Both the position numbers and the translations under genes were made by a program. From Escherichia phage vB_EcoS-22664B1, in the sequence record MZ234008.1: DNA of 45,019 nucleotides, one strand, 5' to 3'. Of the stretch, positions 13,830 to 44,940 are shown in pieces; the first letter of the stretch is position 1, and each line of letters begins with the position of its first letter. The notes beneath the pieces are model-generated. The model was given only the letters and a program-made list of their open reading frames with translations, was not told the origin of the DNA and did not search any database.

Positions 13830-14423
13830 GTGGCTGAGGTCTACTCGTTCGCCGCTACCATTGCAACATGGGTAGATAAGACGAAGGAGAACAACGACAA
13901 GGCGGTGCGGGCGACCGGTATGCAAATACTCGGACGCCTGATTGAGATCTCCCCGGTGGGCGACCCCCGCCGGTGGAAGATTAACAAGGCTTATGCGATG
14001 GCCCGCCAGCACGCGAACAAGGTGAACGCCGCACAGCGCCGCAAGAATGGCGGCAAACTGAAGCGCGGGCAGAAGAAGCACGCCAGTGTGCTAGTATCGT
14101 TCAAGACTAAAAACGGCAACGTCACGTTCCGCCAGCGTGGCTGGGCCGCGAAGAATTACACCGGCGGGCGCTTCCGGGGAAACTGGCAGGTGTCTTTCGA
14201 CCGTCCGGCTGTTGGCGCTGTTGACCGGGTGGACAAGGCCGGAACGGCAACATTGGCGGCGGGGCGTGACGTGCTGGCGCATTACGATTCTGGCGAATAC
14301 GGGTCGATCTGGTTTACTAACAATGTGCCATATGCGCAGCGGCTTGAGTATGGCTGGAGTAAACAAGCGCCCGCGGGGATTGTTCGCGTCGTAGCGGCAG
14401 AAATCAATTCGAAGGTGAAATAA
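13830..14423 (+). CDS. neck/tail component, HK97 gp10-like (putative)
   Basis: C-terminal motif NNVPYAQRLEYGWSKQAP resembles the HK97 gp10 family; position in connector module. Confidence 0.5.
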   Translation: MAEVYSFAATIATWVDKTKENNDKAVRATGMQILGRLIEISPVGDPRRWKINKAYAMARQHANKVNAAQRRKNGGKLKRGQKKHASVLVSFKTKNGNVTFRQRGWAAKNYTGGRFRGNWQVSFDRPAVGAVDRVDKAGTATLAAGRDVLAHYDSGEYGSIWFTNNVPYAQRLEYGWSKQAPAGIVRVVAAEINSKVK

Positions 14424-14845
14424 TGAGCAATACTCTAATCCGCAAGGCGCTTAACAGCGTAGTTGAAGAATTATCGGTAAGCCTGAGCACTAACCAGCGC
14501 CCGATCAAGGTTAACTGGGAGAACGTGAAGGGCGACCACGCTATCGGCAATGGCGTGTACCTGGAGCCGTACTTGCTTCCGGCACCGACCCAGTTTGTTG
14601 GCATTCAGCAGAAGGGCCGGATCTACGCAGGCGTGTATCAGGTTGCCGTAGTGTTCCCCGCGGGCACTGGCACACAGTATGCGAGCGAACTGGCGGACGC
14701 CATCGCGACGTCAGACAAATGGCAGGGCGTAAAGATTACCGGCGCTACCTTCCAGCTTCAGGACGCGCCCTACACCAGTTCGGTGATTGAAGATATCGAC
14801 CGCGCCCGCATCGTGGTATCGGTCCTGTATAACTGTTGCGCCTGA
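14423..14845 (+). CDS. tail terminator / tail completion protein (putative)
   Basis: 140-aa ORF immediately upstream of major tail gene; by synteny. Confidence 0.4.
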   Translation: MSNTLIRKALNSVVEELSVSLSTNQRPIKVNWENVKGDHAIGNGVYLEPYLLPAPTQFVGIQQKGRIYAGVYQVAVVFPAGTGTQYASELADAIATSDKWQGVKITGATFQLQDAPYTSSVIEDIDRARIVVSVLYNCCA

Positions 14846-14906: not shown

Positions 14907-15632
14907 ATGGGTTATCAACTTCCTAACGGGTCTAGCGTCCAGATTGGGTCCGTACTGGGCGACGGCATCGCTGTTACGGCAGCTACCAACGCCACCGCGT
15001 CGATCTCTGACCTCGCTACCGGTTGCGTTATTACCTGCGCGGAATCTCATGGTCTGGTTGTTGGTGATGTGGTTATGTTCACTAAAACCCCGTGGGTCCG
15101 TGCGCTAAACCGCGCGTTTATCGTTGGCGCAGTGTCTACCAACGATGTGACGCTGGCGCGCTTCGACTCCTCGGACGTCACCAAATATCCTACCGGTGCT
15201 TTTGCAGTAGGCACTCCGGGTGAAGTGGTGAAGGTGTCGAGCTTTATCGACTTCCCGTTTATCACCAACGTTGCCGTGTCGGGTGGCGACCAGCAGACGA
15301 CTACCTTCCAGCCGTTGCAGGTTAACACCGCGATCAGCCTGAACACCACGAAAAACCCGTTGGTCCAGACTTACACCTTCACCCACGACGAAGAAGACCC
15401 GATCCGCCCAATCCTGGAAGACCTGGACGACACGCAGAAGACCACCGTGATCAAGTTCACTAACCCAGCGGCAGCAAGCGGCAAAGGTGAAATTCGTATT
15501 TACCCGGCTAAGGTATCTTTCCAGAAGATTCCGTCCGCTGAAGTAAACAACGTTGAAACGGTACAATCCACTCTGACCATGCAGTCTGATATGGTTATCT
15601 ACCGTAAGGATCTGGTCGAGGCATTGTCTTGA
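14907..15632 (+). CDS. major tail protein
   Basis: 241-aa ORF with good RBS-like sequence, followed by terminator and then the G/GT chaperone pair and tape measure. Confidence 0.65.
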   Translation: MGYQLPNGSSVQIGSVLGDGIAVTAATNATASISDLATGCVITCAESHGLVVGDVVMFTKTPWVRALNRAFIVGAVSTNDVTLARFDSSDVTKYPTGAFAVGTPGEVVKVSSFIDFPFITNVAVSGGDQQTTTFQPLQVNTAISLNTTKNPLVQTYTFTHDEEDPIRPILEDLDDTQKTTVIKFTNPAAASGKGEIRIYPAKVSFQKIPSAEVNNVETVQSTLTMQSDMVIYRKDLVEALS

Positions 15633-15662
15633 TTTGGTCGCTTAAATAGCGAGTGTTAATAT

Positions 15663-15686
15663 GGGGCCAGCACGGCCCCTTTTTTA
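15663..15686 (+). terminator. rho-independent terminator (ggggcc agcac ggcccc + T-run)
   Basis: Member of a near-identical terminator family (also at 9973, 25641, 28981). Confidence 0.65.
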
Positions 15687-16064
15687 TTGGAGAATATTAC
15701 AATGGCGAAAGCACCACTCTTCACACTTGACCCTAAGCCGACCTTTAAGCTGCCGATTGAGATCCCGCGCCCTGGTGAGAACGAGCCGGGCAAGATGACC
15801 TTTACCGTCCGCCACCGCCCGATCGACGAGTTTTCGCAGACCATGCAGGACACCGAGCGCAAGCTGTCGGAATATGACGACAATGACCCGGACGGCTTTA
15901 ACGTTATGGTTGAGGCCATCATGCACGTCGCTGAAGGCTGGAATCTGCCAGACCAATTTAACGCTGAGAACGTCCGCCGCCTGGTAGTCAACTACCCCCG
16001 TGCGTTCGGCGTGTTCCACACCTCGTACTATCTCGAACTGATGGGATTGCGTGAAAAAAACTGA
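15687..16064 (+). CDS. tail assembly chaperone (lambda G-like)
   Basis: 125-aa ORF between major tail and tape measure; ends one codon after the slippery heptamer. Confidence 0.7.
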   Translation: MENITMAKAPLFTLDPKPTFKLPIEIPRPGENEPGKMTFTVRHRPIDEFSQTMQDTERKLSEYDDNDPDGFNVMVEAIMHVAEGWNLPDQFNAENVRRLVVNYPRAFGVFHTSYYLELMGLREKN

Positions 16065-16378
16065 TTGAGGCGGCGCGACGCTTTTATGGCCCGCCGCCAC
16101 CCTCCGAAGATTTAGCCGCTAGTTTATGGGGTGCGGCCCCCGAGGATGTTTGTCCACCTGTTGCGCTATGGCCCGACAACGCGAAGATAGTCGCCGTATT
16201 CACAGATTGCTCTACGCAATGGCGCACCGGATTCGGTGGGGCATACGGCATCGACTACGGCGTTCTGGAGTGGCTATTTAAGATGCACGGCATCGAAAAC
16301 GAGCAACGTGCATTTAAAGATATCAAGCTAATGGAGCGAATCGCGCTTGATGAAATGGCGCAACAAAACCCCGCATAA
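15687..16378 (+). CDS. tail assembly chaperone frameshift product (lambda GT-like), via -1 frameshift at 16055-16061
   Basis: The -1 frame is open from 16055 to TAA at 16376-16378 (107 codons, translated manually); slippery heptamer A AAA AAC sits at the end of the G ORF. Confidence 0.6.
16055..16061 (+). promoter_or_regulatory. -1 programmed ribosomal frameshift slippery heptamer A_AAA_AAC
   Basis: Heptamer in correct phase (zero-frame codons AAA AAC) immediately before the G stop codon. Confidence 0.6.
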
Positions 16379-16720
16379 TGAAGCGGGACAAAACGGGACG
16401 TCCCGCTTTGTCCCGTTTTGTCCCGCCACCTGCAAAACTGCATACCTACTCACTTTCATTGCATAAACTCAAAGCGGGACGAGCGGGACGTCCCGATCCG
16501 TCCCGCCCCCTAAATGTGCATACCTATTCAGATTTCGTGCATAAAACAAACGGGACAGAAAGCGGGACAAACATGGGGCGGGACAAAGCGGGACAGCACC
16601 CCGTCCCCGTCAGTGCTGCCGCGGGTTTCAGCCGATCGGGACAAGCGGGACAAACCCCAGTCTTTCAGACTAGACGGGGGTCAATGGCCCCCCTCGTCTG
16701 AGACTGAATAAGGTTTGTTT
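16378..16720. repeat. non-coding repeat region A: GGGAC palindromes, GCGGGACA iterons, TGCATA(A) repeats and conserved GC hairpin
   Basis: GCGGGACA at 16383, 16562, 16578, 16588, 16645; palindrome centred on GGGACGTCCC near 16397; about 165 bp (16548-16710) is about 85% identical to 44770-44937. Confidence 0.85.
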
Positions 16721-16774
16721 GAAATTCGCTGATACAATGTCAATCGGCAACTGCATAAAAAAGGGGACTGCATA

Positions 16775-19420
16775 ATGGCAGATCAAGCAGCAGGCATCAC
16801 GCTAAAGGCGGATGTTGCACAAATCAGAACGGCGAATACGGTGCTGGACTCATTCGCGCAGAAGTCCGAGAACACCGAAAACAAGGTTAAGAAATTAAAC
16901 GACACACTCGGCAACACGAAAAAGGTGACGGGTGACGCCGCGGGCGGAATGGGGAAGCTGGCAACTGAATCGCAGCGCGCCGCAGATGGCATGACGAAGC
17001 AGGAGCGACTTGCCAACCGCTTAGGCATGTCAACCAAAAACCTCGGCTTTGCCTCACGTAACGCCGCATTTCAGTTACAAGATATTGCGGTCACGCTAGA
17101 GATGGGTATGCCGGTGCACCGCGTCATGATTCAGCAGCTACCGCAGTTAACCGGGGCATTCGGAGGACTGGGTAATACGCTGCGTTATGTTGCTGGCTTT
17201 CTCGGTCCGGTAGGGATCGGCCTTGCTGCGGTAACGGCGACGTTAGGTGTAGGCGTGGCGATTACGTCCCGCGCAGAAAACCAGGTAGCGGCGCTGAATA
17301 AGACGCTGGCGCTATCCGGTAATATCTCTGGCCTCACCGCTAACCAGATCCTGGTGCTGTCGGAGAACGCCGAACGCATGGGCGGATCATTCAGCAAGAC
17401 GCGTGACACAATTCAGGCACTGGCGGCAGCAGGTGTGAAAGCTGGTGCTGACTTTGGCGCGCTGGCGAAAGTGGTGAACGACTTCGCGAAGGTGTCTAAT
17501 CAGCCGATCGCTGACGTGGTGGAGTCCATCTCCAAATTATCCAACGACCCGGTGGGCGGCTTGCGCGCACTGGCAGACAAGTATCACGTCGTTACCGAGG
17601 CGCAGATCCAGCAGGTGCGGTCACTGGTTACGACGGGTCGCGAAACCGAAGCGGTGGCGCTGGCTAACAAAACAGCCGCGGCGTCGTTCACCAGCATGAC
17701 CAACGAGATCAAGTCCAACATGGGTACGCTTGAGCGGTCAATGAACGTCGTCACATCGGCAGCTAAATCTATGTGGGATGCCATCCTGGATGTGGGCCGC
17801 GCGCAGTCCTCGAATGAGTCCGAGATGAAAGCGCGTGAGTCCTTGCAGCGCATGACAACGGCTTACTATGCCGAGATGAAAGCGGTAAACGCTGCCGGTG
17901 GGGTAATGACCGAGGCGCAGAAAGCACGAATTAACATGCTTTATAGCGAACTGGTCGCCCAGGAGAAGGTCGTAGCGTCACTCACCCTGCGCAACCGTGC
18001 TGAGCGCGACAACGCCAGCGCCGCGGACAAATCAGCGAAGGCGAACGAGGAGGCCAACCGCACCGCCCGCGACCGCGCCGCGTTCGAGAAGGAATTTGCC
18101 ACCAACGCGCAGAAGCGCGCCGACGAGATCGCCCGCCTCAATTTGCTGAATAAGCGCGGTGTGATTAACGAGAAAGAACTAGCCGAGGCGGTGAAGCAGG
18201 TCAACGAGCGCTACAAAGACCCCGCACCGAAGAAGGCGGCGGCTATTCGCGTGGATGCCGGTGTCAAAATGCTGGAGGTCGCACGGAGCGAACTGGCACA
18301 GCTTAAGGAGTCCGGCAAGCAGATCGAGGCCAATGCAACAACGCAGACCCGCACGCAGCGCGCACAGGCCGCGTTGAATAAGCTGGTGGCGGATAATGAG
18401 CAGATGGTCGCCGCAAGCAAGGAGCGCACTCTAACGGCAGCAGAAAAGCAGCAAATGGCGGAGTTCGAGGCGGTTAAAGCGGTACGCGAGCAGATCGTCG
18501 AAGAAGCCAAATTGCTGGACGCGAAAGAGAAGCAGATCAAGGCACACGCCCAGGTCGAGGCATTCATCAAGAACCAGAACGCTGAGCTAAGGGCCACCGC
18601 TGCGGGCTATGCGCTTTCCACTCGCGAAGCGGCTAACCTGCGCGAAGAATTACAGCTAATTGACCGCCTTCAGCGTGTCGGCGCTAACGATACTGATATT
18701 GACAACGCGGTGTCTAAGCTGCGCGAAGTGCAGGAAGCACAGACCGGTGCTAACGCCTCGTTGTGGGATGGCTTCAGCCGCGGGCTTAAGGATAGCGTGG
18801 ATGAAATGGGTAACGGCTACACGCAGATGACGTCACTCACAAAATTCACGTTCGGCGCTATGCAGGACACGATGAACAAGTTTTTCGAGACGGGCAAGCT
18901 GAGCGCGAAGGATATGGTTAAGTCCATCCTGAGCGAATTAATCAAGCTGGCTACCTCGCAGGCGTTCAAATCCATCGTTAGCGCTTTCGGCGGTGACGGC
19001 GGCAAAAACGGATTGTTCGGCGCTATCTTCTCGGGCCTCACTAAGAACGCAGACGGCGGAGCGTACGCAGGAGGCAATCTAGCGGCCTATTCCGGGCAAG
19101 TGGTAAGCCAGCCTACCTTTTTCAGTTATGGCGTTCAGGCGTTCGCTAAGGGCGCTGGATTGATGGGTGAGGCCGGACCCGAGGCCATCATGCCACTGAA
19201 GCGCGGGCCGGACGGGAAACTGGGCGTTGCCGCTGCCGGTGCTGGTGGGGGTGGGATGATTGTAACGACCAACGTGAACATGGGGACCGGTAAAACGGAC
19301 ACCAGTGTGAGCGGACCGGACCCACGCACCGCGCAGGCGTTCGGAAAGCAAATCACCGAGTCGGTCAAGGCCGAGATCGTGAAAGCGACGAAACCGGGTG
19401 GAGTACTTTACAAACGATGA
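16775..19420 (+). CDS. tail tape measure protein
   Basis: 881-aa ORF, Ala/Gln-rich coiled-coil-like sequence, C-terminal Gly-rich segment; directly after G/GT. Confidence 0.85.
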   Translation: MADQAAGITLKADVAQIRTANTVLDSFAQKSENTENKVKKLNDTLGNTKKVTGDAAGGMGKLATESQRAADGMTKQERLANRLGMSTKNLGFASRNAAFQLQDIAVTLEMGMPVHRVMIQQLPQLTGAFGGLGNTLRYVAGFLGPVGIGLAAVTATLGVGVAITSRAENQVAALNKTLALSGNISGLTANQILVLSENAERMGGSFSKTRDTIQALAAAGVKAGADFGALAKVVNDFAKVSNQPIADVVESISKLSNDPVGGLRALADKYHVVTEAQIQQVRSLVTTGRETEAVALANKTAAASFTSMTNEIKSNMGTLERSMNVVTSAAKSMWDAILDVGRAQSSNESEMKARESLQRMTTAYYAEMKAVNAAGGVMTEAQKARINMLYSELVAQEKVVASLTLRNRAERDNASAADKSAKANEEANRTARDRAAFEKEFATNAQKRADEIARLNLLNKRGVINEKELAEAVKQVNERYKDPAPKKAAAIRVDAGVKMLEVARSELAQLKESGKQIEANATTQTRTQRAQAALNKLVADNEQMVAASKERTLTAAEKQQMAEFEAVKAVREQIVEEAKLLDAKEKQIKAHAQVEAFIKNQNAELRATAAGYALSTREAANLREELQLIDRLQRVGANDTDIDNAVSKLREVQEAQTGANASLWDGFSRGLKDSVDEMGNGYTQMTSLTKFTFGAMQDTMNKFFETGKLSAKDMVKSILSELIKLATSQAFKSIVSAFGGDGGKNGLFGAIFSGLTKNADGGAYAGGNLAAYSGQVVSQPTFFSYGVQAFAKGAGLMGEAGPEAIMPLKRGPDGKLGVAAAGAGGGGMIVTTNVNMGTGKTDTSVSGPDPRTAQAFGKQITESVKAEIVKATKPGGVLYKR

Positions 19421-44759: not shown

Positions 44760-44940
44760 TTTTATTGCATAAAGTAAGCGGGACAAAAAGCGGGACAGAC
44801 AGGGGGCGGGACAAGGCGGGACAGCACCCCCGTCCCGCCCCGGATTACGCGGCTTGCGGGGGAGCGGGACAGGCGGGACAAACCCCAGTCTTTCAGACTA
44901 GACGGGGGTCAGTTGGCCCCCTCGTCTGAGACTGCATAAA
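44760..44940. repeat. non-coding repeat region B: GCGGGACA iterons, inverted GGGAC and conserved GC hairpin (homologous to 16548-16710)
   Basis: GCGGGACA at 44778, 44789, 44806, 44816, 44864, 44873; the 3' 60 nt is nearly identical to region A. Confidence 0.85.

What the first reader, a model, noticed from the sequence alone, without database searches (positions are those of the whole stretch)
16055..16378. Conserved -1 programmed frameshift producing a G/GT-type tail assembly chaperone
The slippery heptamer A AAA AAC (16055-16061) lies one codon before the stop of the G-like ORF. The -1 frame is open for 107 more codons to TAA at 16376-16378, ending just where repeat region A begins and upstream of the tape measure gene. 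This matches the conserved translational frameshift of lambda-like tail chaperone genes. The ORF track does not show the extension because it lacks an ATG.
Basis: partly seen in the sequence, partly recalled or inferred. Interest (0 to 1): 0.45.

Follow-up and report, generated by a model that had tools for sequence, protein, structure and literature searches.

The report
Tail chaperone G/GT programmed frameshift
This is the usual "slippery" site at which some ribosomes shift back one base at the end of a phage tail-assembly chaperone gene and make a longer fusion protein; it is real and well conserved, but it is an ordinary, already understood feature that this phage's database record does not annotate.

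Summary
A_AAA_AAC sits at 16055-16061, in frame. It is followed directly by the UGA stop of a 120-aa ORF (15702-16064). The -1 frame is open only from 16055 and runs to TAA at 16376-16378.

The window is Escherichia phage vB_EcoS-101114B2 (Dhillonvirus). The upstream ORF is a full-length Pfam Phage_TAC_4 protein. The 105-aa extension is a Pfam DUF1799 domain with no usable start codon of its own. The pair lies between the tail tube gene and the tape measure gene.

In 19 related Dhillonvirus sequences the heptamer never varies. The extension is under strong purifying selection in the -1 frame only (dN/dS 0.04-0.07). Synonymous changes are suppressed over a GC hairpin that starts 7 nt after the heptamer.

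Across 98 diverse viral contigs with an upstream ORF and DUF1799 in the -1 frame, 96 have an in-frame heptamer in the overlap (A_AAA_AAC or G_GGA_AAC). In 81 of these 96 the heptamer abuts the stop.

Homologous pairs in T1-like phages are already annotated as frameshift products, and a frameshift was predicted in print for the Edwardsiella phage eiAU homologue.

The predicted fusion is 225 aa, not about 231. Nothing here is surprising. The practical outcome is an annotation correction for Dhillonvirus records.

The parts
15689..15692 (+). Shine-Dalgarno GGAG of the chaperone gene, 9 nt upstream of ATG 15702
   Evidence: Read directly from the sequence. The GenBank record uses the same ATG start.
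15702..16064 (+). G-like tail assembly chaperone ORF, 120 aa, UGA stop at 16062-16064. This is the major 0-frame product.
   Evidence: Translation. Pfam Phage_TAC_4 PF08748, E = 3.7e-23, covering 1-120 of the protein and 1-124/124 of the profile. Variable sites by codon position are 11/6/76. dN/dS is 0.01-0.05.
16052..16054 (+). TGA stop in the -1 frame, which closes that frame immediately 5' of the heptamer
   Evidence: Translation; ORF boundaries.
16055..16061 (+). Slippery heptamer A_AAA_AAC. AAA (Lys119) would be in the P site and AAC (Asn120) in the A site.
   Evidence: It is invariant in 19 unique Dhillonvirus sequences. The same heptamer is found in Tlsvirus, Warwickvirus, Guelphvirus and Webervirus F20 relatives and in 49 of 98 diverse contigs. 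Lys119 is invariant in the G alignment.
16062..16064 (+). 0-frame stop codon UGA directly abutting the heptamer. It is UAA in most relatives; the change is synonymous (CUG/CUA Leu) in the -1 frame.
   Evidence: The heptamer abuts the stop in 81 of 96 surveyed relatives.
16069..16098 (+). Candidate stimulatory hairpin. The stem is GGCGGCG (16069-16075) paired with CGCCGCC (16092-16098), with a 16-nt loop, starting 7 nt after the heptamer.
   Evidence: Predicted energy is -17.1 kcal/mol, but z is only -1.3. The stem is invariant in Dhillonvirus. Third-position variability is 3/13 in this stretch against 66/92 in the rest of T, Fisher p = 0.001. The same register is found in Tlsvirus-like relatives, with 2 pairs changed on both sides. 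Some relatives lack it.
16061..16378 (+). T-like extension read in the -1 frame: 105 codons starting at CUG 16061, with TAA stop at 16376-16378. It encodes the DUF1799 domain.
   Evidence: Translation. Pfam PF08809, E = 6.1e-21. Variable sites by -1-frame codon position are 26/13/72. dN/dS is 0.04-0.07 in the -1 frame and above 1.7 in the other frames. The first canonical start in this frame is ATG 16283, 31 codons from the end, too late to encode the domain.
15702..16378 (+). Predicted GT fusion CDS, join(15702..16061,16061..16378), 225 aa, with junction ...MGLREKN|LIEAARRF...
   Evidence: Inferred from the parts above. phrog_17368 (213 positions) matches the fusion end to end, residues 1-223, E = 2e-31.

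Best explanation

Most ribosomes translate 15702-16061 and stop at UGA 16062, giving the 120-aa chaperone 'G'. A minority behave differently. With tRNA-Lys on AAA (16056-58) in the P site and tRNA-Asn on AAC (16059-61) in the A site, they slip one base 5' and re-pair on AAA AAA (16055-60). They then continue with CUG at 16061, bypass the stop, and add 105 residues carrying a DUF1799 domain. The product is a 225-aa 'GT' fusion.

The GC hairpin 7 nt downstream, and possibly the adjacent stop codon, probably raise the slip rate.

By analogy with lambda G/GT, both proteins would coat the tape measure protein (16775-19420). The T domain would recruit the tail tube protein so that the tube polymerises around it. 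Neither protein would remain in the finished tail.

Shown here: the sequence anatomy, family membership, conservation and selection. Inferred: that slippage really occurs, how efficient it is, and what the proteins do in assembly.
For: - Anatomy: the heptamer is in the correct register and fills the entire 7-nt overlap of the two ORFs.
- Families: Phage_TAC_4 for G and DUF1799 for T. phrog_17368 spans the fusion.
- Gene order: terminator protein, tube, G, T, tape measure, minor tail protein.
- Start codon: T has no usable canonical start; the first one leaves only the last 31 aa.
- Selection: T is under purifying selection in the -1 frame only.
- Dual coding: the heptamer is invariant, and the stop varies UGA/UAA while staying Leu in the -1 frame.
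- Wider conservation: 744 phage records carry G and T covering at least 80% of the fusion, as two tblastn pieces in nearly every listed row. The same A_AAA_AAC-plus-stop is seen in T1-like genera whose G proteins are 30-45% identical to this one. In 98 diverse viral contigs with an upstream ORF and DUF1799 in the -1 frame, 96 have an in-frame heptamer, and 81 of these abut the stop.
- Existing annotation: homologues are annotated as frameshift products in Klebsiella phages Skenny and Sanco and in Serratia phage Smarc4. Serratia phage Scapp has both a 129-aa and a 236-aa chaperone form.
- Literature: a frameshift is predicted for the eiAU homologue of SO-1 gp15 (PMC3025963), and for Stevie and U136B.
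- Motif: A_AAA_AAC is a proven -1 motif in E. coli IS1 (PMC4066793).
- Downstream structure: synonymous-site suppression and a family-wide excess of stability (-15.8 against -11.1 kcal/mol, p = 1.5e-6).
Against: - There is no protein, Ribo-seq or reporter evidence for this phage or any Dhillonvirus.
- None of the roughly 60 Dhillonvirus records sampled annotates a frameshift. HK578 and SO-1 annotate T as a separate gene, apparently starting at ATT.
- Hairpin stability is not significant against shuffles for this sequence alone (z = -1.3). The stem is invariant within the genus, so there is no covariation there. Its arms encode conserved Ala and Pro-Pro residues, and several relatives lack the hairpin.
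- PMC4066793 cites IS1, whose motif is A_AAA_AAC, as an example of a low-efficiency motif, so GT may be made at about 1% or less.
- There is no detectable sequence similarity to lambda G or T.
Confidence: 0.88

Rival explanations
1. Transcriptional slippage rather than ribosomal slippage. RNA polymerase stutters on the A7 run (16054-16060) and adds one A to a fraction of transcripts. This puts T in frame with G and gives the junction REKK-LIEA.
For: The site is a run of 7 A. One metagenomic relative (L166) carries 8 A with G and T in one frame, which shows that the +1A product is a coherent protein.
Against: In T1-like relatives the run is only 6 A (GTA AAA AAC or GCA AAA AAC). Half of the wider family uses G_GGA_AAC, with only 3 A. 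What is conserved is the codon-phased X_XXA_AAC pattern, not homopolymer length. From my own knowledge, efficient bacterial transcriptional slippage needs runs of about 9 or more. L166 also ends prematurely and may be a homopolymer sequencing error.
Confidence: 0.06
2. T is a separate protein, started independently or by termination-reinitiation at the non-canonical ATT (16064-16066) that overlaps the G stop. HK578 gp16 and SO-1 gp16 are annotated this way.
For: The HK578 and SO-1 records annotate a 104-aa CDS starting at the last base of the G stop. Automatic gene callers list DUF1799 proteins as stand-alone ORFs of 60-150 aa.
Against: No ATG, GTG or TTG occurs in the T frame before 16283. 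There is no Shine-Dalgarno sequence ahead of ATT. In T1-like relatives the ATT position is AAA or AAG, while the heptamer is conserved. In 21.9% of the 114 surveyed relatives the first start codon lies less than 25 codons upstream of the conserved TQWR motif, or downstream of it. phrog_17368 and the annotated long forms join both domains.
Confidence: 0.05
3. Chance, or decay: a broken gene, or a fortuitously open frame with no function.
For: In a compact phage genome, 19% of ORFs of at least 100 aa are followed by a -1 frame open for at least 105 codons. Openness alone is therefore weak evidence.
Against: dN/dS is 0.04-0.07 in the -1 frame. The extension has a Pfam domain hit at E = 6e-21. The arrangement is conserved across more than 700 phage records and in 96 of 98 metagenomic relatives. 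The heptamer is depleted elsewhere in the genome.
Confidence: 0.01

Closest known systems
Bacteriophage lambda G/GT tail assembly chaperones (-1 frameshift at G_GGA_AAG; Levin, Hendrix & Casjens 1993; Xu, Hendrix & Duda 2004, as cited in PMC3025963 and PMC8104045)
   Same: Two ORFs lie between the major tail gene and the tape measure gene. The second is in the -1 frame, has no start of its own, and is reached through a slippery heptamer near the end of the first. The tape measure protein is lambda-H-like (TMP_2 plus Tape_meas_lam_C).
   Different: The protein families differ: Phage_TAC_4 and DUF1799 here, against Phage_TAC_2 and Phage_tail_T in lambda. Neither BLASTP nor a profile comparison finds similarity. 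The heptamer is A_AAA_AAC and abuts the stop codon. About 400 bp of non-coding repeats (region A) separate T from the tape measure gene, whereas in lambda T overlaps H.
Tape measure chaperone frameshift of T1-like phages (Drexlerviridae: Stevie, U136B, Skenny, Sanco) and of Serratia phages Smarc4 and Scapp
   Same: The Pfam families are the same, and G and T appear as two tblastn pieces. Tlsvirus, Warwickvirus, Guelphvirus and Webervirus F20 have the same A_AAA_AAC-plus-stop site. Tlsvirus-like phages have a hairpin in the same register. The frameshift is annotated or stated for these phages.
   Different: The G proteins are only 29-45% identical to this one. In those phages the -1 ORF overlaps G by 28-112 nt rather than 7 nt. 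Skenny, Sanco and Smarc4 lack the heptamer and have only A_AAA_G or A_AAG type sites. Where the tape measure gene is annotated in the stretches fetched, it starts 20-95 nt after the end of T, with no repeat region between them.
Edwardsiella phage eiAU ORF22/ORF23 (Carrias et al. 2011, PMC3025963)
   Same: ORF23 is described as a homologue of SO-1 gp15. eiAU Gp15 is the best structural match to the model of G, at 35% identity. The paper states that the conserved tail-gene frameshift is present between the tail tube gene and the tape measure gene.
   Different: It belongs to a different genus and host. The prediction was made with FrameD only. I did not examine its slip site.
IS1 insA-insB' -1 frameshift at A_AAA_AAC in E. 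coli
   Same: The heptamer and the host translation apparatus are identical. It is a proven case of -1 frameshifting, cited as an example of a low-efficiency motif (PMC4066793).
   Different: It is a transposase, not a phage chaperone. IS1 has no established stimulator, whereas a conserved hairpin and an adjacent stop codon are present here.

Membership tests
G/GT-type phage tail assembly chaperone with programmed frameshift (Xu-Hendrix-Duda class) | A pair of ORFs located between the major tail (tube) gene and the tape measure gene | tested here: met
   Tube gene 14907-15632 (PF08813); G 15702-16064; T to 16378; tape measure gene 16775-19420 (PF06791, PF09718).
G/GT-type phage tail assembly chaperone with programmed frameshift (Xu-Hendrix-Duda class) | The second ORF overlaps the 3' end of the first in another frame and has no initiation signal of its own | tested here: met
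   The -1 frame is open from 16055. The first canonical start is ATG 16283. There is no Shine-Dalgarno sequence.
G/GT-type phage tail assembly chaperone with programmed frameshift (Xu-Hendrix-Duda class) | A slippery sequence, in the correct codon phase, inside the overlap | tested here: met
   A_AAA_AAC at 16055-16061 fills the whole overlap and is the only + strand copy in 45 kb.
G/GT-type phage tail assembly chaperone with programmed frameshift (Xu-Hendrix-Duda class) | The arrangement and the slip site are conserved among diverged relatives, with both parts under protein-level selection | tested here: met
   An in-frame heptamer is present in 96 of 98 relatives, and dN/dS is 0.04-0.07.
G/GT-type phage tail assembly chaperone with programmed frameshift (Xu-Hendrix-Duda class) | Both a short and a long protein are made in a fixed ratio. 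Both are needed for tail assembly, and both are absent from virions. | not testable with these tools
   Needs western blot or mass spectrometry and genetics. No such data for Dhillonvirus turned up in the literature searches.
Pfam Phage_TAC_4 (PF08748) | Score above the curated gathering threshold over the full profile | tested here: met
   82.5 bits against a cut-off of 21.1, covering profile positions 1-124 of 124.
Pfam DUF1799 (PF08809) | Score above the curated gathering threshold over the full profile | tested here: met
   74.9 bits against a cut-off of 26, covering profile positions 1-80 of 80.
Lambda G (PF06894 Phage_TAC_2) and lambda T (PF06223 Phage_tail_T) sequence families | Detectable sequence or profile similarity to lambda G and T | tested here: not met
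   There are no Pfam hits to these families. BLASTP gives E = 1.5 and 0.24. hhalign gives a probability of 1%. The relationship is one of position and mechanism, not demonstrable homology.
Stimulated -1 PRF cassette (heptamer, 5-9 nt spacer, downstream RNA structure) | A stable structure 5-9 nt 3' of the heptamer, supported by conservation or covariation | tested here: inconclusive
   A 7-bp GC stem follows a 7-nt spacer, at -17.1 kcal/mol and z = -1.3. Synonymous-site suppression gives p = 0.001. In relatives 80% of cells are paired, against 26-63% when the partners are slid, and 2 pairs change on both sides. There is a family-wide excess of stability. The hairpin is absent in some relatives, and its arms are constrained by coding.
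dnaX-type upstream Shine-Dalgarno-like stimulator | A GGAGG-like element about 10 nt 5' of the heptamer | tested here: not met
   The 16 nt upstream read CTGATGGGATTGCGTG. This contains only GGGA, from the conserved Gly codon.
Programmed transcriptional slippage | A long homopolymer run whose length, rather than its codon phase, is conserved | tested here: not met
   The run is A7 here, A6 in T1-like relatives, and G3A3 in half of the family.

The most novel reading that the evidence does not exclude
In the whole TAC_4/DUF1799 family the heptamer (A_AAA_AAC or G_GGA_AAC) is followed directly by the 0-frame stop codon in 81 of 96 cases, with a GC hairpin a few nucleotides further on. The least ordinary reading is that the adjacent stop is itself part of the signal. 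Slow termination at the stop would compete with slippage, so the G:GT ratio would depend on release-factor activity and on the hairpin. That would make this a distinct 'heptamer-stop-hairpin' cassette rather than a plain lambda-type site.
Probability: 0.2. Interest if true: 0.35.

Novelty: new member of a known kind. Interest (0 to 1): 0.15.

Why it matters
The practical value is in annotation. In this record, and in all of about 60 Dhillonvirus records sampled, the chaperone pair is labelled 'hypothetical protein', 'tail length tape measure protein' or 'DUF1799 domain-containing protein'. The T region is often cut into spurious small ORFs. The correct call is G (120 aa) plus a joined 225-aa GT product.

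Dhillonviruses are common E. coli phages in therapy and defence-system collections. Tail assembly chaperones have recently been reported as triggers of Avs-type immunity (bioRxiv 10.64898/2026.01.04.697583). Knowing both isoforms therefore has some practical use. Biologically the finding adds nothing unexpected.

Tried and rejected
- The search for homologous proteins with the fusion returned only 3 hits, so it did not help build alignments.
Run with T alone, it found 1081 cluster representatives; all of the best 150 were stand-alone ORFs of 38-150 aa and none was a natural fusion.
The Serratia Smarc4 G and P0001 found nothing in IMG/VR. I used a degenerate DNA pattern for the TQWR..G..G..G.D motif instead.
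- No solved structure is related by sequence.
- An AlphaFold model of G from a 3-sequence alignment was only moderate (pLDDT 67.6). It had no PDB match. In BFVD it matched eiAU Gp15 and the Serratia phage Scapp tape measure chaperones.
- The comparison with lambda G and T found no significant similarity.
- The length of the open -1 frame is not informative on its own, because 19% of long ORFs have one.
- Teewinot looked like an in-frame fusion in tblastn. It aligned to the window without gaps at 93% identity and has the normal two-frame arrangement.
- The long T-frame ORFs in the survey are mostly open frames in GC-rich DNA, not fusions.

Full report
**What the window is.** The stretch 15600-16800 is 100% identical to Escherichia phage vB_EcoS-101114B2 (MZ234014.1, genus Dhillonvirus). 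It is 80-98% identical to the other 157 matching records, which include HK578, SSL-2009a and Sodalis phage SO-1.

**Checking the observation.** The sequence reads ...CGT GAA AAA AAC TGA... in the frame of an ORF that starts at ATG 15702, with GGAG 9 nt upstream.
- A_AAA_AAC lies at 16055-16061 in the X_XXY_YYZ phase. Its last codon, AAC, is the last sense codon. The UGA stop is at 16062-16064.
- The -1 frame has TGA at 16052-16054 and is then open for 107 codons to TAA at 16376-16378. The +1 frame closes after 8 codons.
- The two ORFs therefore overlap by exactly the seven bases of the heptamer, so only a shift on the heptamer can join them.
- AAAAAAC occurs twice in the 45-kb window on both strands, against 7.3 expected. 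This is the only + strand copy.
- In the -1 frame the first ATG, GTG or TTG is ATG 16283, 31 codons from the end.
The exception is the product size: G is 120 aa and the fusion is 120 + 105 = 225 aa, not about 231.

**What the two ORFs encode.**
- The 120-aa protein matches Pfam Phage_TAC_4 (tail assembly chaperone) end to end, E = 3.7e-23.
- The 105-aa extension matches DUF1799 end to end, E = 6.1e-21.
- PHROG family 17368, with 213 positions, matches the conceptual fusion from residue 1 to 223. Proteins that join the two parts therefore already exist in phage annotation.
- The neighbours are a tail terminator protein (14423-14845), the tail tube protein (14907-15632, PF08813), a lambda-H-like tape measure protein (16775-19420) and a minor tail protein.
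- This is the canonical gene order: tube, G, T, tape measure.

**Conservation within the genus.** Nineteen unique Dhillonvirus sequences align to the 677-nt G-T stretch without gaps.
- The heptamer never varies. The stop varies between UGA and UAA, a change that is synonymous (CUG/CUA) in the -1 frame.
- Variable sites fall 11/6/76 on codon positions 1/2/3 of G, and 26/13/72 on the positions of the -1 frame in T (chi-square p = 5e-12).
- dN/dS for T is 0.04-0.07 in the -1 frame and above 1.7 in the other two frames.
- T is therefore a real coding region in a frame that has no start codon.

**Conservation beyond the genus.**
- tblastn with the fusion finds 1152 phage records. In 744 of them one place covers at least 80% of the fusion, as two pieces in nearly every listed row. 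These are mostly T1-like Drexlerviridae of Escherichia and Klebsiella, with some Ralstonia, Serratia and other phages.
- The G proteins of the sampled T1-like relatives are 29-45% identical to this one. Lys119, the AAA codon of the heptamer, is invariant in the alignment.
- Tlsvirus, Warwickvirus, Guelphvirus and Webervirus F20 relatives end with GTA/GCA AAA AAC TAA, the same heptamer abutting the stop.
- A degenerate DNA pattern for the conserved TQWR..G..G..G.D motif of DUF1799 returned 114 unique ORFs from IMG/VR. In 98 of these a ≥80-codon upstream ORF places T in the -1 frame.
- Of those 98, 96 have an in-phase heptamer in the overlap: A_AAA_AAC 49, G_GGA_AAC 46, G_GGA_AAA 1. In 81 of the 96 the heptamer abuts the stop codon.
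- The frameshift arrangement is thus a property of the whole TAC_4/DUF1799 family.

**Stimulatory elements.**
- A 7-bp all-GC stem, GGCGGCG (16069-75) with CGCCGCC (16092-98), starts 7 nt after the heptamer. Its energy is -17.1 kcal/mol. In this GC-rich stretch that is not unusual against shuffles (z = -1.3).
- The stem is invariant in the genus.
- Third-codon positions vary at 3 of the 13 codons after the heptamer, against 66 of 92 in the rest of T (Fisher p = 0.001). Pairwise diversity is 0.031 against 0.214. This points to an overlapping RNA constraint.
- Relatives whose G is 61% identical in the alignment (L029, L031) keep the stem, with a G-C to U-G change and different loops. Tlsvirus-like phages have GGCGGUU/AACCGCC in the same register.
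- Over 16 diverse sequences, 80% of cells pair, against 26-63% when partners are slid. Two pairs change on both sides.
- Across the survey, the 45 nt after the heptamer fold better than a control window 120 nt further on (-15.8 against -11.1 kcal/mol, p = 1.5e-6; z below -2 in 30% against 5%).
- Against this, some relatives lack the hairpin (L051, L026, L025), and the arms encode conserved Ala and Pro-Pro. I rate the hairpin as probable but not proven.
- No GGAGG-like element precedes the site.

**Rivals.**
- Independent translation of T is what the HK578 and SO-1 records imply, with gp16 starting on the last base of the stop, apparently at ATT. The ATT is not conserved in T1-like relatives, while the heptamer is. 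No ribosome-binding site is present.
- Transcriptional slippage on the A7 run would give the same protein with K instead of N at the junction. The run is only A6 in T1-like relatives and G3A3 in half of the family. What is conserved is codon phase, not run length.
- One metagenomic contig (L166) has A8 with G and T in one frame, but T ends early. It may be a homopolymer sequencing error.
- Chance is excluded by the selection and conservation data.

**Comparison with known systems.**
- The mechanism and gene position are those of lambda G/GT.
- The proteins are not detectably related to lambda G (Phage_TAC_2) or T (Phage_tail_T) by Pfam, BLASTP or a profile comparison.
- Homologues in the same Pfam families are already annotated as frameshift products in Klebsiella phages Skenny and Sanco and in Serratia phage Smarc4. 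Serratia phage Scapp has both a 129-aa and a 236-aa chaperone form.
- Genome papers state the frameshift for Stevie and U136B. A frameshift was predicted in 2011 for the Edwardsiella phage eiAU homologue of SO-1 gp15 (PMC3025963).
- A_AAA_AAC is a proven -1 site in E. coli IS1, which the paper cites as an example of a low-efficiency motif (PMC4066793). GT is therefore probably a small fraction of G.

**Annotation status.**
- This phage's own record splits the region into 'hypothetical protein' CDSs. One of them (window 16126-16281) is in the +1 frame, where dN/dS is above 3. Another (16283-16378) is just the last 31 codons of T.
- Among about 60 Dhillonvirus records sampled, none names a chaperone or a frameshift. 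Labels include 'tail length tape measure protein', which matches the description attached to the PHROG families that G and T hit.

**Verdict.** It is an ordinary member of a well-known class. The outcome is an annotation correction, so interest is low.

Noticed in passing
window 16379-16700 and 44778-44879: A non-coding stretch of about 320 bp lies between the T stop and the tape measure gene. It holds at least 10 exact GCGGGAC heptamers in both orientations. The window as a whole has 22 copies against 9 expected, and 0 of 100 shuffles reach that number. The stretch also carries a 34-nt direct repeat, TGCATACCTA...TGCATAAA. A second cluster of 7 copies lies near the window end and shares the same 3' tail, GCGGGACAAACCCCAGTCTTTCAGACTAGACGGGGGTCA. 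The SO-1 record calls these regions A and B. The pattern looks like an array of protein-binding sites, in an unusual position inside the tail operon.
   Followed up: partly
L029 (contig ends about 23 nt after the T ORF) and L031: Two metagenomic contigs carry G relatives that are 61% identical in the alignment (58% by BLASTP). Both stop shortly after the T ORF, where the repeat region would begin. This suggests either an assembly break at repeats or a genome end there.
   Followed up: no
window 15663-15685: A strong intrinsic-terminator-like hairpin (GGGGCC-AGCAC-GGCCCC followed by T6) lies between the tail tube gene and G. A terminator is annotated at the same place in Klebsiella phage Skenny. 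It may be an attenuator that sets chaperone and tape measure levels below the level of tube protein.
   Followed up: no
window 16126-16281, 16283-16378, 16418-16513, 16514-16711: The phage's GenBank record annotates four small 'hypothetical protein' CDSs here. The first is in the wrong frame inside T, the second is the tail end of T, and the last two lie in the repeat region. The two ORFs scanned (16126-16281 and 16514-16711) have no Pfam hit. These are probably gene-caller artefacts.
   Followed up: partly
PHROG families 569, 680 and 17368: The PHROG families that match G, T and the GT fusion are all described as 'tail length tape measure protein'. Many phage records carry that same label on the chaperone genes, which wrongly names them as tape measure proteins.
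   Followed up: no
IMG/VR survey loci L060-L179: The DUF1799 family splits almost evenly between two slip sites, A_AAA_AAC (49) and G_GGA_AAC (46). The heptamer abuts the stop codon in 81 of 96 cases. After the shift the peptide usually reads (K/G)K-L..A....Y.
   Followed up: partly
L166 (IMG/VR contig), junction CGC GAA AAA AAA CTG: One relative has 8 A instead of 7, which puts G and T in a single frame (REKK-LRQV...). T then ends prematurely. It may be a homopolymer sequencing error or a natural in-frame variant.
   Followed up: partly
T residues 61-73 (window about 16241-16279) compared with lambda T residues 54-66: The most conserved DUF1799 motif, G(L/I)DY.VL, aligns with FSGLTYTVL in lambda T. 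The profile comparison is not significant (probability 1%). This could be a trace of remote homology or a coincidence.
   Followed up: partly
L023 (OM262540.1, phage vB_EcoS_L-h 1M): The feature table of this record is offset by about 726 nt from its sequence, and the sequence contains N bases in the G-T region.
   Followed up: no
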